Below, in pieces: positions 23,759-59,759 of a stretch of DNA of 64,000 nt (positions are counted from its first letter, which is position 1; each line of letters begins with the position of its first letter). The translations under genes and the position numbers were made by a program. Location of the stretch: assembly GCA_964344105.1 (NCBI GenBank), contig CAYFMD010000001.1, forward strand, positions 4,671 to 68,670. Reading direction: 5' to 3'. The notes below the pieces were generated by a model. It was not told the DNA's origin. It made no database searches and saw only the letters and a list, made by a program, of their open reading frames with translations. The stretch is from Candidatus Woesearchaeota archaeon. Lineage in GTDB: Archaea > Nanobdellota > Nanobdellia > Pacearchaeales > GW2011-AR1.

Positions 23759-25018
23759 TTAGTAGTAGTTTGTTTCTCCAAATTCTTCAGCTTCTGCAGG
23801 TCTTCTTGATAGCAAAACTATCAAAACGATTAGCAATACTACAAAGATAATTACTAGAACTACAGTCAAAACAACAGTATTATCTGTTCCGTCAACTGCC
23901 TTACCAGTAACACCTACTCTAGAAGGCTCTTCTACGTTAACACTGAAACTAACTTGCTTTGCAGCACCAGTATCAGTATTAGCGTTTAGAGTAACTACAT
24001 ATGTACCTTCATCAGTATTCTTAGTAGCCTTTACATCAACCTTTACAGTTCTACTTGAGTCAGCAGCTACTGCAACAACAGATTCAGATACGTCTACAAG
24101 AACACCAGAAGTATCTTCAGGCATTATATTGTAAACAACCATTCTGTTGCTTGGGTTAACAAGAACCAAGTCAAAACTTGTCTCTTGTCCAGGTGAGATT
24201 GTCTTTGAAGTTGCTGATGGAATTACTCCACCTTGAACATCCTCAATAACAACTCTTCCCAGAGCAGTAATACTAGCATCATAGTTGTATGCTTCAACTT
24301 CTATCTCATAGTTACCTGGAGCGGCATTATTTGGTATAGTCAAGTAAACTCTCTTAACAACAGCATCATTGATGTCATCGTCAAATTCGTCTACAGATGG
24401 AGCTAAATCTCCAGCGTATACCTTTCTTGAAACTCCTAGACCAGGGATAGAGGCTTTAACATAAACGTTGTCAAGTCTGTCGTATCCGTTGTTTTCAACA
24501 ACAACATCAACAGCTACACTGTTACCAGCAACAACAACATCAGATAGATCAATACTCAATAGATTCAAACTGTGAAGTTCTCTCTGAATAGTCAATGGAA
24601 TTTCGTATTCTTGTGAACTCTCACCGTTAGCGCTGAATCTAACAAGCAAAGTAACATCATCTGACAAATCATCAAAGTCTTCAGTTGAAGGCATCTTCAA
24701 TGTGAATCTCTTCACATAAGTGTTACCATCAAGAATCAAAAATCTTGAACTTTCGTCCTCAATATCGTTCTTGAAACCTTCAATGTAAACCTTAACTCTA
24801 ACATCTTCAACTTCTCCAAGAGAGTTAAACTTAACTTCTACTGGAACTGTCTCAGAAGCGTCAACTGCTACTGCGTTAGCAACATTGTCAAGATTCATAG
24901 AAATACCATTGAATTCAACATCAGTGATATCTACAAAACCTTGTGCAACAACTGTACTTAGGGCAAATGTTATAGCAAATAATGCTACAAATGAAACCAA
25001 AAGCGCTTTACTTTTCAT
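23759..25018 (-). CDS. Secreted surface protein (S-layer-like) with signal peptide and C-terminal TM anchor
   Basis: The signal peptide is MKSKALLVSFVALFAITFALS. It has Thr/Val-rich beta-like repeats and a C-terminal TM helix VVLTVVLVIIFVVLLIVLIVLL. Confidence 0.65.
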   Translation of the reverse strand: MKSKALLVSFVALFAITFALSTVVAQGFVDITDVEFNGISMNLDNVANAVAVDASETVPVEVKFNSLGEVEDVRVKVYIEGFKNDIEDESSRFLILDGNTYVKRFTLKMPSTEDFDDLSDDVTLLVRFSANGESSQEYEIPLTIQRELHSLNLLSIDLSDVVVAGNSVAVDVVVENNGYDRLDNVYVKASIPGLGVSRKVYAGDLAPSVDEFDDDINDAVVKRVYLTIPNNAAPGNYEIEVEAYNYDASITALGRVVIEDVQGGVIPSATSKTISPGQETSFDLVLVNPSNRMVVYNIMPEDTSGVLVDVSESVVAVAADSSRTVKVDVKATKNTDEGTYVVTLNANTDTGAAKQVSFSVNVEEPSRVGVTGKAVDGTDNTVVLTVVLVIIFVVLLIVLIVLLSRRPAEAEEFGETNYY

Positions 25019-32643: not shown

Positions 32644-35600
32644 TTATGATCTTTCTAACTGGCTAATAAGATCTTGAACCATATTCAAAGGGCCTCTATT
32701 ATCGCCAGGAGTACTAGAGGTAGTATAAACTTGACTACCATCAGAACTTCTAAATATCTCTATGTGCCCCCCTCCTGTTTTCCTAGCACCTAGTCCAAAC
32801 CTTTCTAGTTCCTTAACTTGCTTCCTAGAAAACGATCCTGACCATCCTCCCTTAAACGCAGCCTTAAGAGATTCCTTATCTCTCCTAGATAAAGTTACTG
32901 CAGTATTAACTGAAGGAACTTCAACCCCTATAGCGTCCATAAATTGGGCCATTATCCTTCTTTGATTGTCATCTGCCAACTCATAAGATCTAAGAAGCCT
33001 TGGACCATATGTTGTCTGAACTATCTCTAATAGATCTGGATCACCAGCAAGTTCTCCAACCTCTTGTCTAAATGAGGCCAAGTTTATATTAGGCGTATTT
33101 CCAAAAAGACCATCTACATTATCAATTCTATAAAATCTTTCAACATCTGGATTTTTCCCACCAGATGTATCAAAAACTGCAACTCCTCTCTGAGCATCTT
33201 CCAGTCCTCTATTCCTAGCAAACCTAACCCCTGGACCAAATTCCGCAATAATGGCTTCATCAGCAGCACTACCTGTTCCAACCAAATCTCCCATTTGCCT
33301 ATGCACAGGATTAATCCCAGCAACATTAGACGCCCTCTGCCTTATTTGTTGACTTTGTTGATCTAATGTACTACTAACAGAATGAGATACAGGAGAATCA
33401 CCACTAACTGGTCTCCAACCTAATCCTCTAGCTCTTTCATTAAATGCCTCTAACACATTTTCATCAAAATTAGGATCACTACCATCAAGGAAGTGACCTG
33501 TTCTAGATCCAATGGCCCTGCCATTTTCATCAACTACATGCAGGTTAAACCTGCCATCTGTTATCTCTACTTCTCCAGCACCTCTAACTCCGTTCCCTCT
33601 AGACAGAAAGCTATGTGGAAAGTCTCTACTAGATCTTCCTACCTCTAAGCCCTCGAGTTTCCTAAAATTAAACTCACCACTTTCATCAATTGTCCACATA
33701 TATCTGCCATTAGCAGGTCTTCCATTCTCTAAGAACAATCCATTTTTATCTAGTCTTGATGAGACCTCTCCAGTTGTCAAAGGATTCCTTCTACTCTCTA
33801 GTTCAAACAACAAACTCTCACTTCTTTCATTCAGAGGCACTGTTCTTCCCGTTGATGGATCAACCCACAATCTATCGTCTGCCAAGATCTCATTATCCGA
33901 TTCAACAAAAATATCTCTTCTTTGATATACCGGCAGATCATTACTGCTAGCATAACGATTAAATCTTCTTAACGCATCTTCTGATAAAACCCTATTGGCA
34001 GGGGCAATATCAACTTCCCTAAGACCTGCAGGAACTTCTACTGCAAACCTCTCCCCATTCTTCCCCAACAAAATTCCATTATCTAATGCCCTAAAATTCC
34101 CAGATTTTCTTAATTCATCAAACAATTGTCGATCAACAATGCCCAATGCTTGTCTATTTCCTAATGCATCCTCAACAACACCTATAGATTTCAATCCAGC
34201 TTTAATACCTCTAGCTGCTGATGGTACGGCTCCCAACATGCTGACTGTATCTATAAATCCTGCTGTATCCTCACTAAGAGCTGCTGAAGCACTTAAAACT
34301 AAAGCAGTATCTGTAATTGCTCCATAAGCAGTTGCTGAAAGTCCTTCTCCTAAGTAAGATGTGAACAAAGTCTCACTTGTCAATCCAGCCCTAACTACTT
34401 CTAATGCCCTTTCAGCCCTGAGCAATTTAGCACCTCCTGCCAATATTCTACCTGCACCTGCAGGAGCAGCAAGGACCGTAGCAAAGTCAGCCCCCTGGAG
34501 AATATAGTCCCCAGCACTTTTCTCAATAGGATTCCCTACCCTGTCTAAACCAAATGCACCAACCAATGGAATATCTCCTGTATACTCAACACCTATATCA
34601 GACCCATGACCTGCAATATTCCAGATAACAGGATCATTAGAGACAGCTCTATCAATCATATCCATACGCAATACAGCACTACTAAAATCTCTAGAGAATC
34701 TACTGCCGATAGCATCCCCTCTATCTTGAGAAATTGCCGCAAATAATCTTCTAGTATCACTATCAATCCTTGAATTTTCAAAAGTTAATCCCAATCTATC
34801 TGAGTAGTCTCTAAATTGTTGAGCAGTGACATAATCATCAAAGCCTCCAATATCTATAATCCTGTGAAGTCTGCCTAAATTATCAGAAGCAAAATAATCT
34901 TTCATATCTACTCCGCTAGCTACTAGATCTCTCATTCCTGAAAGCCCTATCCTTCTTCTATCTATCAAACTAAATCCTTGTTCGTCTTCATCTAAGAAAA
35001 CAGCTTGCTGACCTGCTATCTGATCTAATCTATCAGATGACAAGAAATGCCTTATTTCTGTTATGGGTCTCTGCATTTTGTTATACCATATTTCTTCAGA
35101 CTCATCCCCAATAATACCATAAATATCATCCAACAACCTTCCTCCCTCTGCACCATATTGCCTCAACCTATTATCAATCAAAGATAATTCAAATTGTACC
35201 CTAGAGGCTGTTGCCTGATCTCCTCCACCACTAAGTTCAGCATCTCTTAAACTAACCAGAGTCCTTCTCAAACCATTAGATCTTTCTAAAAAATCATTTG
35301 GATAAATATATCTATTCTCAGCAAGAGCCTTCAATCTGATCCCTTCAGGATCTGTAGGATTATAGCTTTTAAGGAATTTTTCTCTAGAGAAAGCCAAACT
35401 AATAGTTTCTCCTCTGCTATCAACATATTGGTCTCTTTCATCTAGCATATATGCTCTCAATAATCCCATCTCTGATTGCACTCTTAATTCTCTCAAAGAT
35501 CTCAATTCCCTATCTAAGGCATCAGAGGACAAATCTCTTCTAGCAGCATTTTCAAGTTCTCCTATCCGTTCAATATTTCTACTATATGAATTTCTAGAAT

Positions 35601-37212
35601 ACAAATAATTTAATCCAGCCCCTTCAGCATCTAGGCCTTGAGCGTTTTGCAATCTCATCTCAGCAAGAAGGCCTCTAGTAGCAATTTCTATTTTTGGATC
35701 AAGCTTTTCTCCTAAAAGCGCATTGGCTCTGGCAATAGACTGATCAAGATCATTCCCCTCAATTATATCTATCCTATACTGATTAACAAGTTCTAAATGC
35801 TTCAATGCCTGCAGGTCTCTTCCTTCAAATTCTCCTGAATCAATATTACTCCTTATTGATGCCAGATTACTCCTAACTTCGCTTTCAATCTGTTCCGCCC
35901 TTAATTGTTGAGCTATCAAATTATTTGAAGACAATTCCTTATAGGTATTAAGTGGAACGCTAGTAGTAGTGTAGTCACCACTAGATCTCGTAGAGATTAA
36001 GTGATACAATCCATTCTCCTCATCTACATAACCTTCTAAAATACCTGATCTAAATCTAAAACCTGTAGCAGAATCTAAATCCCCATTCTTAATTCTTAAT
36101 TTAGCATTCCCATTAACAATCTGAATAAGATGTTTACGATTATCTATCTCGGCAAATCCTGTCTTAACATCAATATATGGTACGCCATCTTTTTTTGCAC
36201 CATCAAAATAAAACTCTGCATAAGCATCTTTACTTATTCCTCTATAGCTTAAAGATCCCTTCAAATTCCTAGCACTAAGCTCTCCATGGATATTTATTTT
36301 TCTATTACCCTCATCAATAGAAATTGCATTCCCATCAAAATCTGATATATCTCTCCCGTCAAGGAATATTGTGAATTCTCCCTCTGAAGAAAAAATCTGA
36401 TTTCCCCCAAAAAATTCTCCATCAAAAACTCCGTCAGTAATGACAATCTCTACAACATTGCCTTCTGAATTAAGTTTTATTTCAACCTTCTCTCCAGAGA
36501 ATATCTGTCTTGATATCCTTCCTTCTGAGTCAATATGGGAATAATCTATATCCACATCCTCTCCACTAACCACATTATTTGCTGGATCAAATAATACTGT
36601 TCCGCCGCCCTCCCCCACATCAAAAACATAATTTCTACCGCTATAGGTAAAACTATAGCTGCCTCCCTTAGCTGATTTAAACCTAGCATAAACTATCTCA
36701 TCATCCTTATTAACCCTAACAACAGCATCTTCATATTGAATTGGCACTCCTGGAGAGATAAATTCACTAGTCCTAGTTACACCCTTAAGAGTTCTCCCGC
36801 CGACCTTGACGTCCGCCACTCCTTGATTAAGCCTTATCTCTTTTCCATCTTCATTAAAGGTCAAACTTAAACTAACATCTTGATCAGATGAAACATCAAA
36901 CCCAAACAAACTTAAATCCTTGCTAGATTTACCAGAAACTCTTAACTCGTCTTCAGCATAATTTAACCTATATCCAAGTGGGACTCTCCCAATCACATTG
37001 CCCTTATCATCCTCTATTATTTTAGTCCCATCATTTTGTATCTTGTAATTAATACTTATATCCTGTTCTTTAGCAATCTTATCAAGTCCGCTATAGAGCT
37101 CATAGTTTGGATCATTTTTATCTTCCAAAAAACTCTTATCAACTAGGCCTGCCCCATAAACTCCTCCAATGAATAATATTATAAGAACTGCTAAAAAGAA
37201 TCTACTTTTCAT
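32644..37212 (-). CDS. Giant secreted protein (1522 aa) with signal peptide
   Basis: The signal peptide is MKSRFFLAVLIILFIGGVYGAG. The N-terminal 400 aa is beta-rich and G/D/S-rich, and the C-terminal 1100 aa is R/D/L/G-rich with helical regions. I recognise no catalytic motif. Confidence 0.7.
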   Translation of the reverse strand: MKSRFFLAVLIILFIGGVYGAGLVDKSFLEDKNDPNYELYSGLDKIAKEQDISINYKIQNDGTKIIEDDKGNVIGRVPLGYRLNYAEDELRVSGKSSKDLSLFGFDVSSDQDVSLSLTFNEDGKEIRLNQGVADVKVGGRTLKGVTRTSEFISPGVPIQYEDAVVRVNKDDEIVYARFKSAKGGSYSFTYSGRNYVFDVGEGGGTVLFDPANNVVSGEDVDIDYSHIDSEGRISRQIFSGEKVEIKLNSEGNVVEIVITDGVFDGEFFGGNQIFSSEGEFTIFLDGRDISDFDGNAISIDEGNRKINIHGELSARNLKGSLSYRGISKDAYAEFYFDGAKKDGVPYIDVKTGFAEIDNRKHLIQIVNGNAKLRIKNGDLDSATGFRFRSGILEGYVDEENGLYHLISTRSSGDYTTTSVPLNTYKELSSNNLIAQQLRAEQIESEVRSNLASIRSNIDSGEFEGRDLQALKHLELVNQYRIDIIEGNDLDQSIARANALLGEKLDPKIEIATRGLLAEMRLQNAQGLDAEGAGLNYLYSRNSYSRNIERIGELENAARRDLSSDALDRELRSLRELRVQSEMGLLRAYMLDERDQYVDSRGETISLAFSREKFLKSYNPTDPEGIRLKALAENRYIYPNDFLERSNGLRRTLVSLRDAELSGGGDQATASRVQFELSLIDNRLRQYGAEGGRLLDDIYGIIGDESEEIWYNKMQRPITEIRHFLSSDRLDQIAGQQAVFLDEDEQGFSLIDRRRIGLSGMRDLVASGVDMKDYFASDNLGRLHRIIDIGGFDDYVTAQQFRDYSDRLGLTFENSRIDSDTRRLFAAISQDRGDAIGSRFSRDFSSAVLRMDMIDRAVSNDPVIWNIAGHGSDIGVEYTGDIPLVGAFGLDRVGNPIEKSAGDYILQGADFATVLAAPAGAGRILAGGAKLLRAERALEVVRAGLTSETLFTSYLGEGLSATAYGAITDTALVLSASAALSEDTAGFIDTVSMLGAVPSAARGIKAGLKSIGVVEDALGNRQALGIVDRQLFDELRKSGNFRALDNGILLGKNGERFAVEVPAGLREVDIAPANRVLSEDALRRFNRYASSNDLPVYQRRDIFVESDNEILADDRLWVDPSTGRTVPLNERSESLLFELESRRNPLTTGEVSSRLDKNGLFLENGRPANGRYMWTIDESGEFNFRKLEGLEVGRSSRDFPHSFLSRGNGVRGAGEVEITDGRFNLHVVDENGRAIGSRTGHFLDGSDPNFDENVLEAFNERARGLGWRPVSGDSPVSHSVSSTLDQQSQQIRQRASNVAGINPVHRQMGDLVGTGSAADEAIIAEFGPGVRFARNRGLEDAQRGVAVFDTSGGKNPDVERFYRIDNVDGLFGNTPNINLASFRQEVGELAGDPDLLEIVQTTYGPRLLRSYELADDNQRRIMAQFMDAIGVEVPSVNTAVTLSRRDKESLKAAFKGGWSGSFSRKQVKELERFGLGARKTGGGHIEIFRSSDGSQVYTTSSTPGDNRGPLNMVQDLISQLERS

Positions 37213-37937
37213 CCAACGACAAATACAAAACTGTATGGAACCTCCTGCAATTCATTATCATAATCTGTTATTGTATAAATCAATCTACCATCCCCAATAG
37301 GAACAAAGGCAACATCATAATTCAAGCTAGTCAAATAGCTCAAATCAACAAACTCCGGATCAGAAACATGTTTACTCACAATATCTTCTGCAGCATCATG
37401 CATATTTCCTAGATTGATCTTCAACGTAACCTCATAACTATCCTCCATAGTAAAGGTCTCTATTTCTTTACTAGCACTAACAAAAACTAAATTATCTATA
37501 TCTACAAAATCATCCCTCACCTTAATATCAGCCTCTTCAATATCTAGGGTTATATCTAATCCAACAAATTCATCCTCCAAACAAAAAGGCATTGTAATTT
37601 CTAAGTATCTCGCAATTTCATCTTCCAATTCAGGAACACTAATTAATACATCCTCCCCATTCCTAACTCCATAAGCAATCCCATTATCCCCATCCCTATA
37701 GTGGTCTTCAGGCAAATTGACATATCCTCCCTGCAATCCTACCAACCTAGCCGCATCAATTGTCCTTTGATTAAAACATTCTCTTATTGCTCTATCGATA
37801 TCTCCAATCTCCTCAAAATTACCAGATCTAAAACTATCTCCAGACCTAAACAAAACCACTAAAATTACTCCTACTACCAAAACTATAGCTATGATTATTA
37901 TCAAGGCAACTTGTGCCCTTTTACCTCTATTTTGCAT
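37209..37937 (-). CDS. N-terminally TM-anchored acidic protein, co-transcribed with the giant protein
   Basis: The TM helix is VALIIIIAIVLVVGVILVVLF. It overlaps the downstream gene by 4 nt. Confidence 0.5.
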   Translation of the reverse strand: MQNRGKRAQVALIIIIAIVLVVGVILVVLFRSGDSFRSGNFEEIGDIDRAIRECFNQRTIDAARLVGLQGGYVNLPEDHYRDGDNGIAYGVRNGEDVLISVPELEDEIARYLEITMPFCLEDEFVGLDITLDIEEADIKVRDDFVDIDNLVFVSASKEIETFTMEDSYEVTLKINLGNMHDAAEDIVSKHVSDPEFVDLSYLTSLNYDVAFVPIGDGRLIYTITDYDNELQEVPYSFVFVVG

Positions 37938-37977: not shown

Positions 37978-38382
37978 CTAAAAAGAACTAATCAACTCAT
38001 CAAACCCTTTAGCATCAAACATCATACTGCCTTTCTTATCTCCATGGCCGTGATGACCTTTCAGATGAAACTTATGTTCAATTTCCTCTTCCATCTTCTT
38101 AAATGACTTCTCTACAGCTTTCTTAAAATCCCAATCATGAGCATCAGCTTCAATAACTTTGCTAGGCAATGCTATTCTAGTATGCAAACTAAACTTCTCC
38201 CTCTTACCATCTTTCTTATACTCTCTAAGATGGAAAATCATCTCCGAAATATTCTTCACCTTATTCTGAATCCTCCCAAAATGCTCATTGAACAATTTGT
38301 CAAAACTCTCCCTATCATTATCACCAAGAACACTGAAACCGGCAGTCTTAACCTTTACCATTTCAATATAACTAAGTAACAC
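37978..38382 (-). CDS. Ribosome hibernation factor-like protein (RaiA/HPF family)
   Basis: The C-terminal segment ADAHDWDFKKAVEKSFKKMEEEIEHKFHLK aligns with E. coli HPF [29 protein letters not shown]. The probable start is at MVKVK. Confidence 0.45.
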   Translation of the reverse strand: MLLSYIEMVKVKTAGFSVLGDNDRESFDKLFNEHFGRIQNKVKNISEMIFHLREYKKDGKREKFSLHTRIALPSKVIEADAHDWDFKKAVEKSFKKMEEEIEHKFHLKGHHGHGDKKGSMMFDAKGFDELISSF

Positions 38383-38403: not shown

Positions 38404-38667
38404 CTAGATTTCAGTAGGTCTTCCCATAGAAACATATGCATCAATAGAAATATATTTTCCCCTACATTTATCTTCAGAATAAAAGTAGACTCCATCTATA
38501 AATTCAGTATTGTGAGTATTCTTGAGCCCAGATCCAACAGCAATATGATCTGGTACCAATCCGCAATTATGTGCAGAGCTTGCTAAGGACTTGTACCAAT
38601 TACCTGCAACAAATCTCTCACCAAATACAGAGACTGCTCCAAGGTACAACTTATCATTACCTGCCAT
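38404..38667 (-). CDS. Hypothetical small protein
   Basis: It is an ORF only. Confidence 0.3.
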   Translation of the reverse strand: MAGNDKLYLGAVSVFGERFVAGNWYKSLASSAHNCGLVPDHIAVGSGLKNTHNTEFIDGVYFYSEDKCRGKYISIDAYVSMGRPTEI

Positions 38668-38685: not shown

Positions 38686-39384
38686 TTAATAAAAATCACC
38701 AGAAACACAAACAAACCCATCAACACAACTCTTCTCGCCTTTCAGCTTCCAGCTCTGAACATTATGATCATGATCACTTACATGATGATACGGATTCCCA
38801 TCATGCCAAATATTATCATTGCTTCCTCCCAATGTAATAACCTCTCCGCCACAACTGTGCGAATGCTCTCTGTAATGATTATTTGTAACAACACCACATG
38901 GAGTCTTAACACTCTGCTTATGTCCACTATCATAACCAGCTCCAATCAACTTTATTGTAAACTTCTTATCATCAGAATGATACCTTGGCTCATAGCGCCT
39001 CTCATCTCTAATGTATCTAACCTTTCTAACTTCAGGCTCATGATCTCTAACATAAACTACCTTAGTTTTTGTCTTGTGTTTGTAAGGAACGTATTTCAAC
39101 CTAGCATCCTTGTAAGCCCTTTGATATCCAGGACCTGAATAAATATAATAATCATTTATTGGATTGTATTTCTTAACTCCTCCAAGTGTAATCACGTGCT
39201 TGCCATACTGATGTCCATGGTACCCCTTACCATAACTATTATGTCCATATGTGTAACCACAATCATGATAATATCCATCAAAGCCTCTACAAAGCGCAGC
39301 ATCAACAGCACTAACAGCTCCAACAACTAACACTATTCCAAAAAGAAACATCAATAATTTTTTGTTCATCATTTTTCTCATCAT
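38686..39384 (-). CDS. Secreted Tyr/His/Gly-rich protein
   Basis: The signal peptide is MMRKMMNKKLLMFLFGIVLVVGAVSA. It has repeated GYHG/YGH/YxY motifs and paired Cys residues. Confidence 0.5.
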   Translation of the reverse strand: MMRKMMNKKLLMFLFGIVLVVGAVSAVDAALCRGFDGYYHDCGYTYGHNSYGKGYHGHQYGKHVITLGGVKKYNPINDYYIYSGPGYQRAYKDARLKYVPYKHKTKTKVVYVRDHEPEVRKVRYIRDERRYEPRYHSDDKKFTIKLIGAGYDSGHKQSVKTPCGVVTNNHYREHSHSCGGEVITLGGSNDNIWHDGNPYHHVSDHDHNVQSWKLKGEKSCVDGFVCVSGDFY

Positions 39385-39409
39385 TTTAATTATTTAAAGA
39401 TTATTATAC

Positions 39410-39901
39410 TCACCTGTAAGACCATAGCACCAAATAATGCTCAGGCCTGCTCAATAGCCTAACACTATTCTCACTATGTTTATTATAGCTATAAGGACTG
39501 CTACTTTCGTAATGATTATTCTCTCTAACATAACTGTAATAAGGATAATATCTGTCAATCACATACTCTCTATCTTGGTATTTCTGACCACTATAACCTG
39601 GATAATAACTACTATACGATCTGTAACTGCTATCTCTGCTCCTATAAACCCAGCCATCGTCATATCTATCCTTGGAACTTACAGAAATCAAATTAGGTTG
39701 CCACCTATAATTAGGACGGCTATTACCATAACTATGCCTATAATCATAGCTATCATAATATTCATAACCGTAATTACCTCGGTAATGGCTACTATAATAA
39801 CTAGCACTAACAAATCCACTTCCAAGCAACAAAACCATCAAAAACATTCCAACAAATAATCCTAATCTTTTCATTTCCATCTTAACAATAACTAACTCCA
39901 C
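39410..39901 (-). CDS. Secreted Tyr/Ser-rich low-complexity protein
   Basis: The signal peptide is MKRLGLFVGMFLMVLLLGSGFVSA, and the mature part is about 30% Tyr with YYSS/YRSY repeats. Confidence 0.5.
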   Translation of the reverse strand: MELVIVKMEMKRLGLFVGMFLMVLLLGSGFVSASYYSSHYRGNYGYEYYDSYDYRHSYGNSRPNYRWQPNLISVSSKDRYDDGWVYRSRDSSYRSYSSYYPGYSGQKYQDREYVIDRYYPYYSYVRENNHYESSSPYSYNKHSENSVRLLSRPEHYLVLWSYR

Positions 39902-40418
39902 ATCCTCCTAAATATGTATAACCTGGAACAAAAGCATTTCCATAATTATTGTAACTGTAATAAGGCTGATATCTACTTATTCCTAATCCTCCACCATAAA
40001 AACCACCATAGCCTCCCCAACCTCCAAAGCCTCTATTCCAACCACCATAAGTCAAACCAGCAGTACCTACTCCGCTACTAAAATAAGGTCTATTAAAACT
40101 TTCAGGATAATCTACAAAAAAGAAGCTAGGTCTAACATCTCCAGCATCATACATTTGATATCTATAATTTCCATAACTTCCTTTAAAGATTGGAGTATTA
40201 GCATGTTGCTTGATTGGATATCTATAATTTCCCCTATAATCGTAATATCCACTACCATCATTAGAACTTTTGTAATAATAATTAGAACTACTAGAACCGT
40301 GTGGTCCTTGATATCTGTGATTGAACTCAGCAGTAGAATAGCCAGCACTAACAACACTAACACTAGCAAGCAAAAGAATCATTGCAACCACCATCACCCC
40401 AACCATTCTACTATTCAT
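39882..40418 (-). CDS. Secreted Tyr/Gly-rich low-complexity protein
   Basis: The signal peptide is MNSRMVGVMVVAMILLLASVSVVSA. It has a GGWGGYGGFYGGGLG tract and ends in a C-terminal CGVSYC. Confidence 0.5.
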   Translation of the reverse strand: MNSRMVGVMVVAMILLLASVSVVSAGYSTAEFNHRYQGPHGSSSSNYYYKSSNDGSGYYDYRGNYRYPIKQHANTPIFKGSYGNYRYQMYDAGDVRPSFFFVDYPESFNRPYFSSGVGTAGLTYGGWNRGFGGWGGYGGFYGGGLGISRYQPYYSYNNYGNAFVPGYTYLGGCGVSYC

Positions 40419-40572
40419 AAAAAAAGAAGCTAGATACTATTTATAAAAATATGTACAAAATAGAGCTAGTATCAAACCCGTAAATATAAGGCAGTAATCT
40501 AATAACTCAAAATCAACTACCTGTAATATAAGGGAACCATAAAATTATAAAGAAGAATATTAGATTAAGAAA

Positions 40573-41001
40573 ATGGCAATTATGAAAAGGTTAACTGATC
40601 GTATAGAGAGAGGGGGCTATCCTATGGAATATGTTAATAAGGAAGCTGCTGTAGAAACAGTGGCAAGTATAGCAAGCTGGATATCACTTGGTACAGATGT
40701 AACTGCAGGAGCCCATGGATTATGGGGTGGTTACAACCATAAATGGAGAGAAACTGCTCAAACAACTTCACAAGATGAAAGGCAAACGAGAGCTTTCAGA
40801 AGATCTATAGCTTACATCGCAGCTCTAACCACTGCAAAATACGTATTTTCAGATATCTCAGAGTCCTTAGAACCAGCCATAGAAGCAGGAAAAACTGCAG
40901 CATGGGGACTTGGAGGATTATTGTTACCTTATGCTGGAAGAGTAATCGGAAAAGTCGGATATGCAATTTGGAACGCACTACCTTCGCCAGATAAGAATTA
41001 A
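40573..41001 (+). CDS. Hypothetical A/G/T-rich protein with GC-shifted composition
   Basis: It is an ORF and a possible paralogue of the next gene, with shared A/G/T-rich hydrophobic segments. Confidence 0.4.
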   Translation: MAIMKRLTDRIERGGYPMEYVNKEAAVETVASIASWISLGTDVTAGAHGLWGGYNHKWRETAQTTSQDERQTRAFRRSIAYIAALTTAKYVFSDISESLEPAIEAGKTAAWGLGGLLLPYAGRVIGKVGYAIWNALPSPDKN

Positions 41002-41028: not shown

Positions 41029-41514
41029 TTGATGAGGTTGAGGTCTATCATAAGAGATGTTTCTGTAACTGCAGCTTACACAACTGCAGGAGCCTTAGGA
41101 TTTCATTATTTAGCTGACTATATTCCATTAGGCCAATGGGATACCATTGGTAATAACGTTGCAGCATCAGCGGGAATAGTTGCCGGATACCATCTATCTA
41201 AAAGAGGTATCAATAGGGGCATGGCAGGATTAGCATTATCTTCTGCAGCAGCAATTGGAGCAGTAGCCTATGACTTATTCACAGATTCTTATACAGGAAG
41301 CCCTGGAAGAAGTTTAATGAGTTACGTCGAAATGACTGGAGTAAGTTGGCTGTTATTAAGTAGATTCATTACACCGGAAACTGGCGAGGGTGGAGGTGGT
41401 GGAGACGATGATCGTGGAGGAGACCGTCCATTCATAGTTGGACCAAGAGGTGGAAGCGGAAAGAAACCAAGATCTGAATCAAGACCTAGAACCGGTTTCC
41501 CAACTGCAGTCTAA
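41029..41514 (+). CDS. Hypothetical membrane-associated protein with a Gly/Arg-rich tail
   Basis: It has hydrophobic A/G-rich segments, and the tail reads GEGGGGGDDDRGGDRPFIVGPRGGSGKKPRSESRPRTG. Confidence 0.4.
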   Translation: MMRLRSIIRDVSVTAAYTTAGALGFHYLADYIPLGQWDTIGNNVAASAGIVAGYHLSKRGINRGMAGLALSSAAAIGAVAYDLFTDSYTGSPGRSLMSYVEMTGVSWLLLSRFITPETGEGGGGGDDDRGGDRPFIVGPRGGSGKKPRSESRPRTGFPTAV

Positions 41515-41551: not shown

Positions 41552-42013
41552 ATGGGCGATTATGAAAGACAAGTAGCAGAACTTCTTTTTGGAAATCCAA
41601 GGAGAACTGACCTATATGCAGATTTTAGAAGAGGAAGAGATGCACCTCACGACACAGCCCAAAGAGTTCTAGAAGCACTAGCACATCCAGAATTAGTCAG
41701 AGCAAACCTATCTCTAAAAAGGCAAATGGATATATCTAGTCCTAACGCAGTATATGCGGGAGACGAAGCATCATATGCAAGAGCAAATGGATCTGATTTC
41801 TCATTACTATTGTTTAGACCTGAATTAAGGGCGGACATTTACGAACCATTTGTAGGACTAACAGCGTCAGCAAATAGTTCCTATAGATTCCAAACAGGAT
41901 CTCAAGATTTCAGAATAGTTTTCAATAATCTGAGTGATGGTGATCAAACAACTGGGGGCAACATCCAGCACAGATCTATGCATGCAGTTAGATCAAATGT
42001 TAGAAGCAGATAA
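41552..42013 (+). CDS. Hypothetical protein with GC-shifted composition
   Basis: It is an ORF whose 3' end overlaps the convergent agmatinase gene by about 20 nt. Confidence 0.4.
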   Translation: MGDYERQVAELLFGNPRRTDLYADFRRGRDAPHDTAQRVLEALAHPELVRANLSLKRQMDISSPNAVYAGDEASYARANGSDFSLLLFRPELRADIYEPFVGLTASANSSYRFQTGSQDFRIVFNNLSDGDQTTGGNIQHRSMHAVRSNVRSR

Positions 42014-42778: not shown

Positions 42779-43501
42779 CTAAGCAATAGGTTCTAATCTC
42801 CTTAGGCATCTTCCAGAAGGCTTATCACAATATTCATCTATCCCTCCAGGACTGCAATCATTATCAATTTTACAATATTCGCAATTTCCAGTTTCACCAC
42901 CTAGGGGGATATTACATATTAGTCCATCATAACAGTCTGCTCTAAATCTGCATCCTCTAATGCACGTGTAAATATTCTCATCACAAAAAACTCCTGAAAA
43001 ACAAAGGTGCTGATTATCGGGATCACAATTAAATAATTCCGTACAATCAATTCTCCCAGTACATTCCTTAGTCACGCATTTACCTTCATAACAAAATAAT
43101 TCAATATCTGAATTCAGACTATTACAATCATCATCTTCATTACAAATACAATCTGCCGGACACTCAAATATTCCCCCGATCTCCTCTCCAGGCCCGCATT
43201 TATTATCTCCACAGAAAGTATCACAATCTGCAGGGCAGGTGCTAATATCTTCATGAGGCTCGCAAATATCATTATAATTGCATTCAGATAAAGCTTCATT
43301 CTCAGTAGGATCTGCTAGTTCCGGTACAGCCGGTTCAGGTTCTGCAAGCGTAGGCATAACACCTTCCTGATTTAATCTACCCAATAAGCCCTCTAAATCA
43401 CTAGATTGGCTAGCTACAATTCCTAAAACAATGACTGCAACAAAAATGCCAATTACCCAATAATTAAGATTCTCTTTCTTTCTAGAATGTTTCTTCACCA
43501 C
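42779..43501 (-). CDS. Cys-rich N-terminally membrane-anchored secreted protein (paralogue family member 1)
   Basis: It has the TM helix YWVIGIFVAVIVLGIVA, then ...DLEGLLG..., then about 40 Cys in CxxC/CPADC modules. Confidence 0.55.
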   Translation of the reverse strand: MVKKHSRKKENLNYWVIGIFVAVIVLGIVASQSSDLEGLLGRLNQEGVMPTLAEPEPAVPELADPTENEALSECNYNDICEPHEDISTCPADCDTFCGDNKCGPGEEIGGIFECPADCICNEDDDCNSLNSDIELFCYEGKCVTKECTGRIDCTELFNCDPDNQHLCFSGVFCDENIYTCIRGCRFRADCYDGLICNIPLGGETGNCEYCKIDNDCSPGGIDEYCDKPSGRCLRRLEPIA

Positions 43502-53794: not shown

Positions 53795-53828
53795 CAAAAA
53801 AACAATGGTCTCAAAGACCTTGTTTTTA
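53795..53828 (-). terminator. A short hairpin (GGTCT-CAA-AGACC) flanked by a T7 run on the minus strand and a T5 run on the plus strand. It is a putative terminator between the inserted gene block and rps12.
   Basis: I saw this in the sequence about 100 nt downstream of the 53915 stop. Confidence 0.4.
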
Positions 53829-53914
53829 GGATCATCAGTAATTCCCACACACATAGTGTGTGGTGTGTTAAATTACTGAGATAAAAAGGGTTTAAAAAGG
53901 TTCGCATGGTAAAA

Positions 53915-56216: not shown

Positions 56217-59200
56217 TTATTCAGCACTAGGCTCTTCACTAGCCTTTTCAGAAGTATCTTTTGTATCCTTAGTCAACTTAGCAACACTCTTATCAGCCTT
56301 AGGCTTACTATCTGTCAAAGGACCAGCAACTTCTACCATCAATCCAGGTAATCCAGTACCTACTGGAACAGGCTGATTCAAGATAATATTCTCAATAACC
56401 GAGTTCAACTCATCCTTATTATCCTTCAAAGTAGCATTAACAAACTGCTTAATTGGTGTCTCGAAACTAGCTCTAGCCAAAATAGATGACTTCTGAGAGA
56501 TAATACCCATTCTAGTAATACCCTTAACAACACCTTCATTAGTCATAGCATCACTTATCAACTTAGAGTGTCTACCATCAATATCAAGTCCCTGAGAATT
56601 CAATACCTTACCAATTTCTCTAATAATAACTGCTCTTGCAACCTCAATACCGAAGATATCTGCAACTTCATGGATATCATTACTTACAGTATTAGATGGA
56701 TCAACTTCCTTGAACTTAATTATCTCTTCCAAGTTTGTTCCAGCAGTCAAAATAACATAACCAGTATCTCTCCTAACAACCAAAATTTGGCTAATCCCCT
56801 TAATACCTGAAATCTGAGTATCCTTAACCTTCTCCTTCAACTTATAGATCTCCTTAAAGTCAAGATCCTTTCCATCAAAGACAATCATACTACCACTAAC
56901 CTTAGCAGTTCCCAACTTTCCAGTATCATTCAATCTCTTAACAATAGTATCCAAAGTTGAATGAACCCTCTTAACAGCCTCATTATCTACCGTAGCCTCA
57001 ATCTTCTTATCTGAGAAATTAATCTTAATCTCCTTAATTATATCTTTCAACTTAACTTCTTTAATCTTCTCAGCCAAAACCTTTGCATTCTTCTCATCAT
57101 CATACTGCTTATTCAAATGAATCTCCATTTCTGGTGTTGAAGGGGTTCTTCTAGCGTCAAAAATCTCTATCAATCTTGGAAGACCACTCGTAACCTGCAT
57201 TTCAGCAACTCCTGCGAAGTGGAATACATTCAATGCCATCTGAGTTGATGGCTCTCCAAATGATTGAGCAGTAACAATTCCAATAGCCTCACCAGCACTA
57301 ATATCTTTATCCTCATGCAATCTAGCTACATCCTTTCCATCTTCTCCATACAAGAACTGAATAATTCTTCCACTACCATCTCTAACTGTCTTATCATACT
57401 CAACTCTAATGTCTTGTAGAGCATTAGCCAATCTTCTATATAGATAACCTGACCTAGGTGTTCTCAAAGCGGTATCCATTAACGCGTCTCTTCCAGTTAT
57501 AGCTCCGAAGAAGAACTCATATGGTTTCAATCCACCTAAGAAACTACTATAGATAAATCCTTTAGCCTTTGGTGTAAGATCGTGCTCCTTAAAGAAACTC
57601 AATGTTCTATTATTAAATCCAATTCCAATTCTCTTAGCCCACAAAGCCTGCTGTCCAACGCAACATGCCATCTGTGTAACATTCAATACACTTCCACCAG
57701 ATCCTGATGTCATCATAACACTAACTGGATTTGATTTGTAAATTTCTCTACCAACAATCTTTCCAATCTTTGTTCTAATACCATTCAAAGTCTGCAAAAT
57801 CTTAATCTCTCTAGTCTCTTCATCAGTCTTACCTGGAATAATCTCCAAATTACCCTCGTGGAAATCCTGAATAATCTTCTCAGTTTCCTTCTCAGCATCC
57901 ATAACAACTTGATCAGTTTCTTTCTTAACCTTCTCACTAACATTCAAGTCATCAACTGAAATTGTAAAACCATGATTAGTCAAATAATTTGTACCTAGTG
58001 CAGAAGAAGTCTCTAGAACTTTAATAGCTTCATCTCTACCGAAATCCTTGTCTACAAACTTCAACATGTCTCCAGCTTCTACACCGAAAACCTTCTCATC
58101 AACAATACCCTCACTAATCTTTCCACCCTTAACATTAAATGCACTTCCATCCTTTGCCTTAGCACTATAATCTACCTTTGGAATCAATGTACTAATAACT
58201 TCATTACCCTTAGGATCCTTACCAAACTCCCCTTCAATTCCTGACTGGAACAACAACTGATTAGCTTCAGCCTTATTCAATCCGCCTTGACTCAACAAAT
58301 AATTTCCAGTAACTGCATCAACAATATTTCCTAACAAGTTACTATTATCCTTACAGCTCATCAAATTCTTATTAACATCCATCAAGATCTTAGCTTCTGC
58401 TCTAGCTTCCTCAGTCTGAGGAACGTGGATATTCATCTCGTCACCATCGAAGTCCGCATTATATGGATTTACAGTAGCAGGATGAACTCTAAATGTCTTG
58501 TAAGGAAGAACCTTAACAAAGTGAGCCATTAAACTAGCCTTATGCAAAGATGGGTGTCTATTAAACAATACAACATCTCCTTCAATCAACTGTCTCTCAA
58601 CAACATAACCAATCTCCAACTCTTCCAAAATCTCTTCCTTCAAATCCTGAGTAATTCTCTTCCTTCTACCATCAGGTCTAATTACATAATTAGCAGTTGG
58701 ATAATGTTCATTCAAAATAATCTTCTTCAACTTATCAATATTCATACTGTTAACTTTCTCATTAACTGTCAATAACTCAGCAATCTCATATGGAACACCA
58801 ACTTCATTCAAATGCAAGCTTGGATCTGGAGAAACAACAGTTCTCGACGAGAAATTAACTCTCTTTCCAGCAAGATTGTGTCTAATTCTTCCTTCCTTAC
58901 CCTTTATTCTTTCAGTAATAGTCTTCAATGGCTGTCCTGATCTGTGTCTTGCAGGAGGAATCTTTGTAATTGAATTATCAAAGAATGTAGTAATATGATA
59001 CTGCATCAAATCCCAAAGATCTTCAATAATAACTTCAGGAGCTCCAGCATTCAAGTTCTCCCATAATCTCTGATTAGATCTTATAATATCTGAAAGTTTG
59101 TGGGTCAAATCATCTTCTGATCTCTCACCACTTTCTAGAGTAATACTTGGTCTAACTGTTACAGGTGGAACCAACAATAAAGTAAGAACTGACCATTCAG

Positions 59201-59759
59201 GTCTAAAAATCTCGGGATTCATTCCAGCCAATCTAACTTCTTCATCTGGAATTCTAGCTAATCTATCCCTAATCTCTCCAGGGAACAATCTTTTCTTTCC
59301 AACCTTGAATGTAGTAGGTTTATGCAACTTAACTTTCTCTTGCTCAGCACTACAATGAGGACATTTCTTAGAGTCCTTAGCTCTCTTCAATCTATCCTTG
59401 ATAGTTTTATACTTAGCCATATCCTTCTCTTTAACCATTAACTTGCTACATTCACTACAATAACATCTCAAGAACAACTCAGCTACTGGGATATACTTAA
59501 TATGGAAAACAGGTCTAGCCAACTCAATACTTCCTGGGTGACCTAAACATTCCTTCAATCTACCACCACAAGTTCTACATCTTACACCAGGATCAATAGC
59601 TCCCAACCTTAAATCCATCAAACCACCATCAACTGGATAACCATCTACGTCATATAGTTCTGGAGTAATAATCTTCGCCTTACTCATCTTCTTAATCTCA
59701 TCAGGACTAATCAAAGTAAACTGCAAACTCTCAACTTTTTTCTTTACTGGTCTTTTCAT
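56217..59759 (-). CDS. rpoA: RNA polymerase largest subunit RpoA as a single continuous ORF (A' + A'' fused), 1180 aa
   Basis: It has N-terminal zinc-binding Cys clusters, the NADFDGDEMN active site, a bridge helix and the trigger-loop GEAIGIVTAQSFGEPSTQMALNVFHFAG, all in one frame. Confidence 0.9.
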   Translation of the reverse strand: MKRPVKKKVESLQFTLISPDEIKKMSKAKIITPELYDVDGYPVDGGLMDLRLGAIDPGVRCRTCGGRLKECLGHPGSIELARPVFHIKYIPVAELFLRCYCSECSKLMVKEKDMAKYKTIKDRLKRAKDSKKCPHCSAEQEKVKLHKPTTFKVGKKRLFPGEIRDRLARIPDEEVRLAGMNPEIFRPEWSVLTLLLVPPVTVRPSITLESGERSEDDLTHKLSDIIRSNQRLWENLNAGAPEVIIEDLWDLMQYHITTFFDNSITKIPPARHRSGQPLKTITERIKGKEGRIRHNLAGKRVNFSSRTVVSPDPSLHLNEVGVPYEIAELLTVNEKVNSMNIDKLKKIILNEHYPTANYVIRPDGRRKRITQDLKEEILEELEIGYVVERQLIEGDVVLFNRHPSLHKASLMAHFVKVLPYKTFRVHPATVNPYNADFDGDEMNIHVPQTEEARAEAKILMDVNKNLMSCKDNSNLLGNIVDAVTGNYLLSQGGLNKAEANQLLFQSGIEGEFGKDPKGNEVISTLIPKVDYSAKAKDGSAFNVKGGKISEGIVDEKVFGVEAGDMLKFVDKDFGRDEAIKVLETSSALGTNYLTNHGFTISVDDLNVSEKVKKETDQVVMDAEKETEKIIQDFHEGNLEIIPGKTDEETREIKILQTLNGIRTKIGKIVGREIYKSNPVSVMMTSGSGGSVLNVTQMACCVGQQALWAKRIGIGFNNRTLSFFKEHDLTPKAKGFIYSSFLGGLKPYEFFFGAITGRDALMDTALRTPRSGYLYRRLANALQDIRVEYDKTVRDGSGRIIQFLYGEDGKDVARLHEDKDISAGEAIGIVTAQSFGEPSTQMALNVFHFAGVAEMQVTSGLPRLIEIFDARRTPSTPEMEIHLNKQYDDEKNAKVLAEKIKEVKLKDIIKEIKINFSDKKIEATVDNEAVKRVHSTLDTIVKRLNDTGKLGTAKVSGSMIVFDGKDLDFKEIYKLKEKVKDTQISGIKGISQILVVRRDTGYVILTAGTNLEEIIKFKEVDPSNTVSNDIHEVADIFGIEVARAVIIREIGKVLNSQGLDIDGRHSKLISDAMTNEGVVKGITRMGIISQKSSILARASFETPIKQFVNATLKDNKDELNSVIENIILNQPVPVGTGLPGLMVEVAGPLTDSKPKADKSVAKLTKDTKDTSEKASEEPSAE

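What the first reader, a model, noticed from the sequence alone, without database searches (positions are those of the whole stretch)
38686..40418. Tandem array of three secreted Tyr/Gly/Ser/His-rich low-complexity proteins
Three consecutive, slightly overlapping minus-strand genes (232, 163 and 178 aa) each begin with a clear signal peptide. Each encodes a mature protein that is 25-30% Tyr with G/S/H/R partners (YYSSHYRGNYGYEYY, GGWGGYGGFYGGGLG, GYHGHQYG). Such compositions are typical of self-assembling, adhesive or cross-linked extracellular matrices. They are unusual for archaea and may represent a surface, cement or attachment material.
Basis: seen in the sequence. Interest (0 to 1): 0.6.

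Follow-up and report, generated by a model that had tools for sequence, protein, structure and literature searches.

The report
Conserved secreted tyrosine-rich protein operon
Three adjacent genes of an ultra-small (DPANN) archaeon encode exported, unusually tyrosine-rich proteins that are kept together in related archaea, resemble no known protein, and probably build a surface or attachment material, though that function is untested.

Summary
The three minus-strand genes are real: C 39882-40418, B 39410-39880, A 38686-39384. They are the three most Tyr-rich of 58 ORFs in the window. Mature Tyr content is 11, 23 and 18%, not 25-30%. Only 12-27% of mature residues are simple sequence. The overlaps come from taking the longest ORF.

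The genes are three distinct families, not duplicates. All are under purifying selection (dN/dS about 0.1-0.5). The order C-B-A holds in every related contig long enough to show it. All named hits are Pace-, Woese- or Nanoarchaeota MAGs, and the cluster sits among housekeeping genes between EF-2 and EF-1alpha.

Each protein has a Sec-type signal peptide with an invariant Ala at -1. All three families almost completely lack N-x-S/T glycosylation sequons (1, against 116 mirror motifs), which independently argues that they are exported.

Pfam, NCBIfam, PHROGs, PDB and IMG/VR gave no relative. AlphaFold was confident only for the signal-peptide helices. No modifying enzyme is linked to the cluster.

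Best reading (about 0.45): co-expressed, exported, unglycosylated aromatic-rich proteins that assemble together into an envelope or attachment material. This is a lineage-specific, uncharacterised system, analogous but not homologous to Tyr-rich spore-coat and cell-wall proteins.

The parts
40440..40447 (-). TATA-like box TTTATAAA, 21 nt upstream of the ATG of gene C. Probable promoter of a leaderless C-B-A transcript.
   Evidence: Read directly from the sequence. The spacing fits an archaeal TATA box about 26 nt before the transcription start. This is an inference; no transcript data exist.
39882..40418 (-). Gene C (178 aa): signal peptide plus a Gly/Tyr/Ser-rich mature protein of about 153 aa
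   Evidence: ORF. 29 homologue clusters, alignment A2, dN/dS 0.15-0.49.
40344..40418 (-). Signal peptide of C (residues 1-25, MNSRMVGVMVVAMILLLASVSVVSA); predicted cleavage after the invariant A25
   Evidence: A25 is invariant and S24 at least 90% conserved across 29 sequences. AlphaFold gives a confident helix at residues 3-26. Hydrophobic 12-mer mean 3.16.
40101..40193 (-). Conserved core of family C (residues 76-106, PIFKGSYGNYRYQMYDAGDVRPSFFFVDYPE)
   Evidence: Invariant P76, F78, K79, G80, G83, Y85, Y90, G93, D94, P97 and Y104. This pattern retrieved every related locus.
39975..40049 (-). Gly/aromatic low-complexity linker of C (YGGWNRGFGGWGGYGGFYGGGLGIS); length varies among homologues
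   Evidence: Entropy scan. Indel-rich columns in alignment A2.
39885..39902 (-). C-terminal Cys pair of C (C173 to C178, GGCGVSYC)
   Evidence: Present in every C protein of the C-B-A type. Distant C proteins carry an aromatic tail instead.
39410..39880 (-). Gene B (156 aa from the ATG at 39880): signal peptide plus a Cys-free mature protein with 23% Tyr and 20% Ser. It is the most conserved of the three.
   Evidence: ORF, start deduced. 15 homologue clusters. Mean column identity 65%. dN/dS 0.08-0.24.
39803..39880 (-). Signal peptide of B (residues 1-26, MEMKRLGLFVGMFLMVLLLGSGFVSA)
   Evidence: A26 and S27 are invariant; V24 and S25 are at least 90% conserved.
39413..39454 (-). C-terminal motif of B (LSRPEHYLVLWSYR), the family signature
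   Evidence: Invariant L143, R145, P146, E147, Y149, W153 and Y155. A similar PEYYVYTWSHR occurs in the second cluster gene of L011 and L044, alongside A-type Cys loops.
38686..39384 (-). Gene A (232 aa; possibly 227-228 aa from the ATG at 39372 or 39369): signal peptide plus a His/Lys/Tyr-rich protein with Cys loops near both ends
   Evidence: ORF. 11 homologue clusters, alignment A1, dN/dS 0.14-0.47. Gene callers elsewhere give 227-228 aa.
39298..39384 (-). Signal peptide of A (residues 1-29, ending in the invariant V-D-A)
   Evidence: V27, D28, A29, A30, L31 and C32 are invariant. AlphaFold predicts a helix over residues 5-34; its confidence is highest over residues 1-20 (mean pLDDT 61-79) and falls below 50 from residue 26.
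39259..39291 (-). N-terminal Cys-loop module of A (C32 to C42, LCRGFDGYYHDC), the hallmark shared across the wider gene cluster
   Evidence: Invariant in A1. Found on A-like genes, and on C-like genes of distant lineages.
38707..38727 (-). C-terminal Cys loop of A (C220 to C226, CVDGFVC)
   Evidence: C220, G223, F224 and C226 are invariant.
38404..38667 (-). 87-aa ORF in the same orientation, 18 nt downstream of A, with no signal peptide. Membership of the unit is uncertain.
   Evidence: A homologue follows A in L001-L003 but not in L004-L006. No family hits.

Best explanation
C, B and A form one co-transcribed unit, probably leaderless from a TATA box upstream of C. It encodes three different small pre-proteins. 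Each is exported by the Sec pathway and trimmed by signal peptidase I at a conserved V-S-A or V-D-A site.

Outside the membrane the mature proteins (about 17, 16 and 23 kDa) stay free of N-glycans. They associate with one another through their many regularly spaced aromatic side chains (15-28% Phe, Trp and Tyr). Short disulfide loops at the ends of A and C add stability. The result would be a proteinaceous envelope or attachment material of these ultra-small DPANN archaea.

B is Cys-free and the most conserved, so it is proposed as the core or bridging component.

Shown here: the genes are real, under selection, co-inherited in fixed order, lineage-specific, have Sec/SPI-type N-termini and lack sequons. 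Inferred: cleavage, co-assembly and a structural or adhesive role. Covalent Tyr cross-linking is possible but has no support here.
For: 1. All three families are under purifying selection. dN/dS is 0.08-0.49, and B matches the adjacent arginase-family gene. Many Tyr positions are individually conserved.
2. The order C-B-A is fixed in the window and in the complete loci L001, L004, L005, L006, L007, L010, L021, L025 and L039. Contigs that end early still show C followed by B. C and B are 1 nt apart; B and A are 25 nt apart.
3. In more distant Woese- and Pacearchaeota, a C-type gene is again followed by one or two more genes encoding a signal peptide, a Cys loop and 15-25% Tyr.
4. One lineage (L011, L044) combines B's C-terminal motif with A's Cys loops in a single protein. 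That fits partners which work together.
5. Signal peptides: the n-h-c architecture is present and the Ala at -1 is invariant in all three alignments. PKD-domain surface proteins in the same window have the same design. The only confident AlphaFold elements are these helices.
6. Sequon avoidance: 1 N-x-S/T against 116 mirror S/T-x-N motifs in 55 proteins, where shuffling predicts about 96. In 67 distinct cluster ORFs the counts are 6 against 128. Cytoplasmic proteins and the PKD giants of the window have normal numbers. Such avoidance makes sense only for proteins that meet the oligosaccharyltransferase outside the membrane and must stay bare.
7. The aromatic fraction is conserved (A 13-19%, B 23-27%, C 25-38%) while pI is not.
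8. The cluster lies in the core genome between EF-2 and EF-1alpha, next to FmrO-like, arginase-family and deoxyhypusine synthase genes, across distant lineages.
Against: - There is no direct evidence of assembly, localisation or expression.
- AlphaFold gave no fold, so no interface can be inspected (pLDDT 37.5 for A and 44.4 for C).
- No oxidase, peroxidase, transglutaminase, sortase-like enzyme or dedicated chaperone is present in the window or conserved near the cluster.
- The C-termini show no membrane or wall anchor.
- Codon usage resembles ordinary genes rather than EF-1alpha and EF-2. An abundant structural protein is therefore not indicated.
- No internal repeat or i/i+2 aromatic periodicity typical of beta-ladder fibres was found.
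- High positional conservation, especially in B, is atypical for a purely composition-driven disordered adhesive. It could instead reflect a specific fold with a different, for example ligand-binding, role.
Confidence: 0.45

Rival explanations
1. The proteins are subunits of an extracellular filament. This could be a functional amyloid-like or donor-strand fibre, with C or A as nucleator or tip and B as the major subunit, rather than an amorphous layer or cement.
For: B and C are 55-58% Gln/Asn/Ser/Gly/Tyr, a prion-like composition. AlphaFold cannot fold the monomers. Strict sequon avoidance suggests tight packing. A multi-gene operon of small Sec/SPI-exported proteins parallels curli and the archaeal threads and cannulae (established knowledge).
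Against: No imperfect internal repeats and no i/i+2 aromatic periodicity. No hit to Curlin or any fibre family. No secretion or assembly partner is conserved nearby. Donor-strand fibre subunits usually give confident beta-sandwich models; A and C did not. B was not modelled.
Confidence: 0.15
2. They are soluble or surface-displayed binding proteins, for example aromatic-rich glycan or host-envelope adhesins. Each would have a specific fold not yet predictable and would act on a partner cell rather than self-assembling.
For: Position-specific conservation is high: 54 of 156 columns in B are at least 90% conserved. The 31-residue core of C has 11 invariant residues. Cys loops sit near the termini. 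Aromatic side chains are the usual carbohydrate-binding residues (established knowledge). DPANN archaea depend on hosts.
Against: No lectin or CBM-like family hit and no confident fold. Three unrelated small proteins kept in fixed order point more to a complex than to independent binders.
Confidence: 0.2
3. The N-terminal hydrophobic segments are uncleaved signal anchors. The proteins would then be type II membrane proteins with Tyr-rich ectodomains.
For: Sequence alone cannot prove cleavage. The hydrophobic cores are 15-18 residues long, which is close to spanning a membrane.
Against: The invariant small residue at -1, and Val at -3, lie directly after the hydrophobic core in all three families. 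This is the signal peptidase I signature and is not needed by an anchor. Conservation rises sharply exactly at that boundary.
Confidence: 0.1
4. They are secreted Gly/Tyr-rich antimicrobial or competition peptides, comparable to bacteriocins.
For: Gly/Tyr-rich secreted antimicrobial peptides exist in animals (own knowledge). C gave a sub-threshold Pfam hit to YxzE-like putative bacteriocin over its N-terminal 50 residues: the signal peptide and the start of the mature protein (E 0.066, 14.7 bits against a cut-off of 40).
Against: The cluster has a core-genome position, fixed synteny across deep lineages and purifying selection as strong as the neighbouring enzyme. There are no immunity, export or maturation genes and no mobile context. 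The Pfam hit is far below threshold and is too weak to count as homology.
Confidence: 0.04

Closest known systems
Tyr-rich outer spore-coat proteins of Bacillus subtilis (CotC, CotU, CotG)
   Same: They are small, very Tyr-rich proteins deposited outside the membrane that assemble into high-mass, insoluble forms. Several different Tyr-rich proteins act together, and disulfide and dityrosine links contribute (PMC7944565).
   Different: There is no sequence relationship. The coat proteins are made in the mother cell without signal peptides. The dityrosine chemistry and assembly factors implicated for the coat (a peroxidase, SodA, CotE and CotH; PMC7944565, and own knowledge) have no counterpart near this cluster. 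The organisms here are DPANN archaea, not spore formers.
Curli and other functional-amyloid operons (CsgA, CsgB)
   Same: An operon of small Sec-exported Gln/Asn/Gly/Ser/Tyr-rich proteins that polymerise outside the cell. A minor and a major subunit are encoded side by side (established knowledge).
   Different: There is no Curlin repeat hit, no internal repeats and no dedicated secretion or chaperone genes. The three families here are unrelated to one another.
Plant glycine-rich and Tyr-containing cell-wall proteins; Gly/Tyr-rich insect eggshell and cuticle proteins
   Same: A signal peptide followed by GYGG-type Gly/Tyr low-complexity tracts, as in the C linker GGWGGYGGFYGGG. They are structural wall components that can be Tyr cross-linked (own knowledge).
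   Different: Only about a quarter of C is such a tract. The rest is non-repetitive and conserved by position. There is no homology, and a linked peroxidase was not seen.
Mussel foot and sandcastle-worm cement proteins; FUS-like prion-like domains
   Same: High Tyr plus Gly, Ser, Arg and Lys content. Aromatic residues are evenly spaced, with adjacent aromatic pairs depleted (z -5 to -7 at family level). This design drives coacervation and adhesion through pi and cation-pi contacts (own knowledge).
   Different: Those sequences evolve fast and are repeat-based. B evolves as slowly as the neighbouring enzyme. DOPA formation needs a tyrosinase, which was not found here. Net charge is not conserved.
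Archaeal Sec/SPI-exported fibre subunits (Sulfolobus threads, Pyrodictium cannulae CanA/B/C, bundling pili)
   Same: They are small archaeal proteins with class I signal peptides that assemble extracellularly without a dedicated ATPase. Cannulae use three subunits (own knowledge).
   Different: Those subunits are homologous to each other and form beta-sandwiches. A, B and C are not clearly homologous, gave no confident fold and, unlike many such fibres, avoid glycosylation sites.

Membership tests
Sec/signal-peptidase-I secretory pre-proteins (class I signal peptides) | Basic n-region, hydrophobic h-region of about 10-18 residues, then small uncharged residues at -3 and -1 of the cleavage site | tested here: met
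   A: MMRKMMNKK, then LLMFLFGIVLVVGAVSA, then V-D-A. B: MEMKR, then an 18-residue core, then V-S-A. C: MNSR, then an 18-residue core, then V-S-A. The Ala at -1 is invariant in A1, A2 and A3.
Sec/signal-peptidase-I secretory pre-proteins (class I signal peptides) | Positive call and cleavage site from a trained predictor (SignalP, DeepTMHMM), or an experimentally determined N-terminus | not testable with these tools
   No such predictor is available. Sequon avoidance serves as indirect support.
Archaeal or bacterial lipoproteins | Lipobox [LVI][ASTVI][GAS]-C, with Cys directly after a small residue at -1 | tested here: not met
   The Cys of the loop is preceded by Leu or Ile in nearly all cases (AALC, ASLC, AGLC, ATIC). 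B has no Cys and C has none near its N-terminus.
Type IV pilin-like proteins (class III signal peptides) | Short charged leader cleaved before the hydrophobic segment, which remains in the mature protein | tested here: not met
   The conserved processing motif lies after the hydrophobic segment, not before it.
Curli-type functional amyloid (CsgA, CsgB) | Curlin repeat units (Pfam Curlin_rpt), with several imperfect internal repeats | tested here: not met
   No Pfam or NCBIfam hit at E up to 0.1. No periodic aromatic spacing.
Curli-type functional amyloid (CsgA, CsgB) | Forms cross-beta fibrils | not testable with these tools
   This needs recombinant protein with thioflavin-T binding, fibre diffraction and EM.
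Bacillus Tyr-rich spore-coat proteins (CotC, CotU, CotG) | Sequence membership in the Cot families | tested here: not met
   No Pfam, NCBIfam or PDB relative.
Bacillus Tyr-rich spore-coat proteins (CotC, CotU, CotG) | Dityrosine or disulfide cross-linked multimers | not testable with these tools
   This needs cross-link mass spectrometry, as in PMC7944565.
Archaeal donor-strand fibres (threads, cannulae, bundling pili) | Beta-sandwich subunit fold with a free donor strand | tested here: inconclusive
   The AlphaFold models of A and C have pLDDT 37.5 and 44.4 with no confident domain. The alignments are shallow (11 and 29 sequences).
PGF-CTERM / archaeosortase or C-terminal TM-anchored surface proteins | C-terminal sorting motif followed by a hydrophobic helix and a basic tail | tested here: not met
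   The C-termini are ...LVLWSYR...GGCGVSYC and ...CVSGDFY, with no hydrophobic helix.
Phage or virus structural proteins | Hit to a PHROG family or presence on viral contigs | tested here: not met
   No PHROG hits. No relative in IMG/VR.

The most novel reading that the evidence does not exclude
The C-B-A cluster, and its two- and three-gene relatives marked by the LCxGxDGYYHDC loop, would be the genetic basis of a previously unrecognised envelope or attachment structure. This structure would be glycan-free and aromatic-rich, and specific to Woese-, Pace- and Nanoarchaeota. It could be a self-assembling 'tyrosine cement' or amyloid-like layer by which ultra-small archaea coat themselves or adhere to hosts. 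That would be the first archaeal counterpart of Tyr-based biological adhesives and coats, built from three novel protein families.
Probability: 0.3. Interest if true: 0.75.

Novelty: new variant of a known kind. Interest (0 to 1): 0.55.

Why it matters
Woese- and Pacearchaeota are abundant, uncultivated, ultra-small archaea. Their cell envelope and their way of contacting hosts are essentially unknown; a 2018 review notes that S-layers of the newly recognised phyla, including DPANN, had not been analysed (PMC6098224).

This cluster offers a concrete candidate for an envelope or attachment component. It is core-genome, vertically inherited and specific to the lineage. Its three proteins are exported, strongly conserved, extremely aromatic and deliberately sequon-free.

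The cluster also gives a compact sequence marker: the core PIFKGSYGNYRY and the loop LCxGxDGYYHDC.

Finally, comparing sequon counts with their mirror motif worked as a tool-free indicator of exported proteins that must stay unglycosylated. That approach may be useful more widely.

Tried and rejected
- Structure: AlphaFold2 on alignments A1 (A) and A2 (C) gave mean pLDDT 37.5 and 44.4, with only the signal-peptide helices confident. Fold searches would have been meaningless and were not run.
- Family searches: Pfam, NCBIfam and PHROGs gave nothing, apart from a sub-threshold YxzE hit over the signal peptide and the first ~30 mature residues of C. PDB profile searches gave nothing credible. The IMG/VR scan found no relatives.
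- Paralogy of A, B and C: rejected for A against B and A against C, which align only over the signal peptides. B and C share one further weak stretch, which does not establish paralogy.
- Lipoprotein idea for the Cys that follows the signal peptide of A: rejected because position -1 is Leu or Ile.
- Codon usage as an expression proxy: NAY codons end in C at 0.14-0.17, like ordinary genes, against 0.36 for EF-1alpha and EF-2. This gives no support for very high expression.
- Conserved basic charge as an adhesion mechanism: rejected. The pI of C homologues ranges from 4.5 to 9.1.
- Beta-ladder periodicity of aromatics: no i/i+2 excess. Adjacent pairs are depleted only at family level, and this is not significant in the window proteins alone.
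- Linked cross-linking, processing or anchoring enzyme: Pfam scans of most ORFs of at least 100 aa across the window, and neighbour clustering over 33 non-redundant loci, found only housekeeping neighbours. These were EF-1alpha/EF-2, FmrO-like, arginase-family, deoxyhypusine synthase, DnaG-like, Mre11-like and HPF-like genes.
- Literature: searches for Tyr-rich secreted proteins in DPANN, Woese- or Pacearchaeota found nothing relevant.
- Bacterial-type promoter and terminator scan: uninformative for an archaeon.
Full report
**What is there**

The region holds three consecutive minus-strand ORFs:
- C, 39882-40418, 178 aa.
- B, 39410-39901 when read from a GTG, 163 aa.
- A, 38686-39384, 232 aa.

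The window is archaeal with about 35% G+C. It carries RpoB, an apparently fused RpoA, EF-2, EF-1alpha and deoxyhypusine synthase.

Among 58 ORFs the mean Tyr content is 4.2% (sd 2.9). B (19.2%), C (15.2%) and A (9.9%) are the top three and are neighbours. The chance of that arrangement is about 0.002.

**Corrections to the observation**

- Mature Tyr content is 11.3% (A), 23.1% (B) and 17.6% (C), not 25-30%. Some distant C homologues do reach 29-33%.
- Only 12%, 27% and 25% of mature A, B and C lie in low-entropy windows. The proteins are compositionally biased rather than simple-sequence.
- The B/C overlap is an artefact of taking the longest ORF. Homologues begin at the equivalent of the ATG at 39880, one base after C's TAA stop at 39882-39884. 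B and A are separated by 25 nt. Gene callers elsewhere start A four or five codons later.
- A TATA-like TTTATAAA lies 21 nt upstream of C's ATG. This suggests a leaderless transcript, but that is an inference.

**The genes are real**

Each protein has homologues:
- 11 clusters for A, at 35-100% identity.
- 29 clusters for C.
- 15 clusters for B.

The alignments show position-specific conservation:
- A has invariant VDAALCxGFDGYYHDCGY, KKxNxINxYYIYxGxGY and a C-terminal CxxGFxC.
- C has an invariant core P-x-FKG-xx-G-x-Y-x4-Y-xx-GD-xx-P.
- B has 65% mean column identity and an invariant C-terminal LxRPExYxxxWxY.
- 17 of 30 Tyr in B and 13 of 23 in A are at least 90% conserved.

Pairwise dN/dS is 0.15-0.49 for C, 0.08-0.24 for B and 0.14-0.47 for A. 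The adjacent arginase-family gene gives 0.10-0.16. Synonymous sites are near saturation, so these values are rough.

**Three families, not a tandem duplication**

Profile-profile comparison aligns A with B, and A with C, only over the signal peptides. B and C also align weakly just past the signal peptide.

Modules are nevertheless shared across the wider cluster:
- The N-terminal loop LCxGxDGYYHDC sits on A in the window but on C-type proteins in distant lineages.
- C proteins without that loop end in GGCxxxxC. Those with it end in an aromatic tail such as FSFFWY or WFWY.
- One lineage (L011, L044) has a single protein that combines B's C-terminal motif (PEYYVYTWSHR) with A's N- and C-terminal Cys loops.

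**Distribution and context**

- Family C has only 23 representatives at 50% identity among 1.84 billion proteins.
- All nine genome hits come from MAGs labelled Pacearchaeota, Woesearchaeota, Nanoarchaeota or simply 'archaeon'.
- Metagenome hits include contigs whose names indicate marine samples (TARA 0.1-0.22 um, GOS) and groundwater 0.1-um fractions.
- Across 50 fetched loci, every contig that is long enough shows C (no loop), then B, then A (loop) in that order. Where C carries the loop, B is absent and one or two further genes follow that encode a signal peptide, a Cys loop and 15-25% Tyr.
- The cluster sits among housekeeping genes, between EF-2 and EF-1alpha in the window, L011 and L012.
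- Clustering neighbours over 33 non-redundant loci found only housekeeping partners. These were EF-type GTPases, an FmrO-like methyltransferase, arginase-family and deoxyhypusine synthase genes, and DnaG-, Mre11- and HPF-like genes. No oxidase, protease, chaperone or anchor-processing enzyme is conserved nearby.

This picture indicates a vertically inherited core unit, not a mobile or defence element.

**Evidence for export**

SignalP was not available. The N-termini do have the class I design, with a basic n-region, a 15-18-residue hydrophobic core and V-S-A or V-D-A. The Ala at -1 is invariant in all three families, and conservation jumps at that boundary. The PKD-domain giants of the same window carry the same kind of leader.

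Sequon counts give independent support:
- In 55 homologues there is one N-x-S/T against 116 mirror S/T-x-N motifs, among 706 Asn residues. Shuffling predicts about 96.
- In 67 distinct cluster ORFs from all loci the counts are 6 against 128.
- Cytoplasmic proteins and the PKD giants of the window have the expected numbers.

Archaeal N-glycosylation happens at the outer face of the membrane (PMC6098224). Selective loss of sequons therefore implies two things: the proteins are exposed there, and a glycan would harm their function. This is an inference. The homologues are related, so the counts are not independent events. The forward-versus-mirror asymmetry is still extreme.

**What could not be learned**

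- AlphaFold2 gave pLDDT 37.5 (A) and 44.4 (C). Only the signal-peptide helices were confident. No fold search was justified and B could not be modelled.
- There were no Pfam, NCBIfam, PHROG or PDB relatives and no viral-contig relatives.
- Codon usage does not resemble that of EF-1alpha and EF-2.
- pI is not conserved.
- Aromatic residues show no i/i+2 periodicity. They show only a family-level depletion of adjacent pairs.
- Literature searches found no description of these proteins.

**Interpretation**

The best-supported model (confidence about 0.45) is a co-expressed set of three exported, unglycosylated, aromatic-rich proteins that associate outside the cell into an envelope or attachment material. 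The terminal disulfide loops of A and C would add stability. Cys-free B, the most conserved, would be the core component.

The rivals are:
- filament or amyloid subunits (0.15);
- specific binding proteins or adhesins with unpredicted folds (0.2);
- uncleaved membrane anchors (0.1);
- antimicrobial peptides (0.04).

The closest analogues are the Tyr-rich spore-coat proteins CotC and CotU (PMC7944565), curli, plant Gly/Tyr wall proteins and Tyr-based adhesives. All are functional analogies only. Every membership test that could be run for these families failed or was inconclusive.

**Verdict**

The cluster is a real, lineage-specific, uncharacterised system of moderate to good interest.

Noticed in passing
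window 53795-53880; L001 6271-6387 (also L002, L003, and protein P0005): A double-hairpin element of about 90-117 nt lies in an intergenic stretch of the window (folding z about -6). It resembles a 117-nt in-frame insertion (78% identity over 59 nt; folding z -7.0) that splits the invariant NDY|YIY motif of gene A in L001-L003. P0005 has an insertion at the same site. There is no Rfam match. It could be a MITE-like mobile element or an intron-like insert that is tolerated or spliced.
   Followed up: partly
window 32644-37212 (-) and 23759-25018 (-): Two other signal-peptide proteins also have no N-x-S/T sequons. The 1522-aa giant has 0 against 9.8 expected and 12 mirror motifs. The 419-aa protein has 0 against 3.9 expected. 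The PKD-domain giants at 2145-6269 and 6266-8965 have normal numbers. A subset of the secretome therefore seems selected to stay unglycosylated. The 1522-aa protein has no Pfam hit. Together with the 242-aa gene at 37209-37937, it is absent from the corresponding place in L004 and L005.
   Followed up: partly
window 56217-59759 (-): The RNA polymerase subunit A gene appears to be a single 1180-aa ORF covering Rpb1 domains 1-5. It is not split into A' and A'' as in most archaea.
   Followed up: no
window 37978-38382 (-); L004 6233-6550; L010 8056-8364; L039: A small protein with weak similarity to the HPF/YfiA ribosome-hibernation fold (E about 0.002-0.004, below the cut-offs) is repeatedly found just downstream of the Tyr-rich cluster in distant lineages.
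   Followed up: partly
window 38404-38667 (-); L001 6743-7042: An 87-aa ORF with no signal peptide lies 18 nt after gene A, preceded by AGAGG. It is conserved next to A in L001-L003 but not in L004-L006. It has no family hits and may be co-transcribed.
   Followed up: partly
window 40573-41001 (+), 41029-41514 (+), 41552-42013 (+): Three small genes are transcribed divergently from gene C; the first two encode Gly/Ala-rich proteins that look membrane-embedded (seen in the sequences; the second has a sub-threshold DUF4126 hit), the third does not. They are conserved beside the cluster in the closest relatives (L001, L004, L022) but are missing in L008, where the arginase-family gene abuts C. 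They have no significant family hits.
   Followed up: partly
window 42779-43501 (-): A 240-aa protein with an N-terminal hydrophobic segment and a very Cys-rich ectodomain of repeated CxxxC-type spacings. It has no Pfam or NCBIfam hit.
   Followed up: no
L001 5400-5966: In one marine relative, a 188-aa ORF that looks cytoplasmic is inserted between B and A. The unit therefore tolerates interruption.
   Followed up: no
window 18000-64000: The + strand has strongly negative GC skew (-0.2 to -0.55) wherever genes run on the minus strand. This reflects a marked purine excess on coding strands.
   Followed up: no
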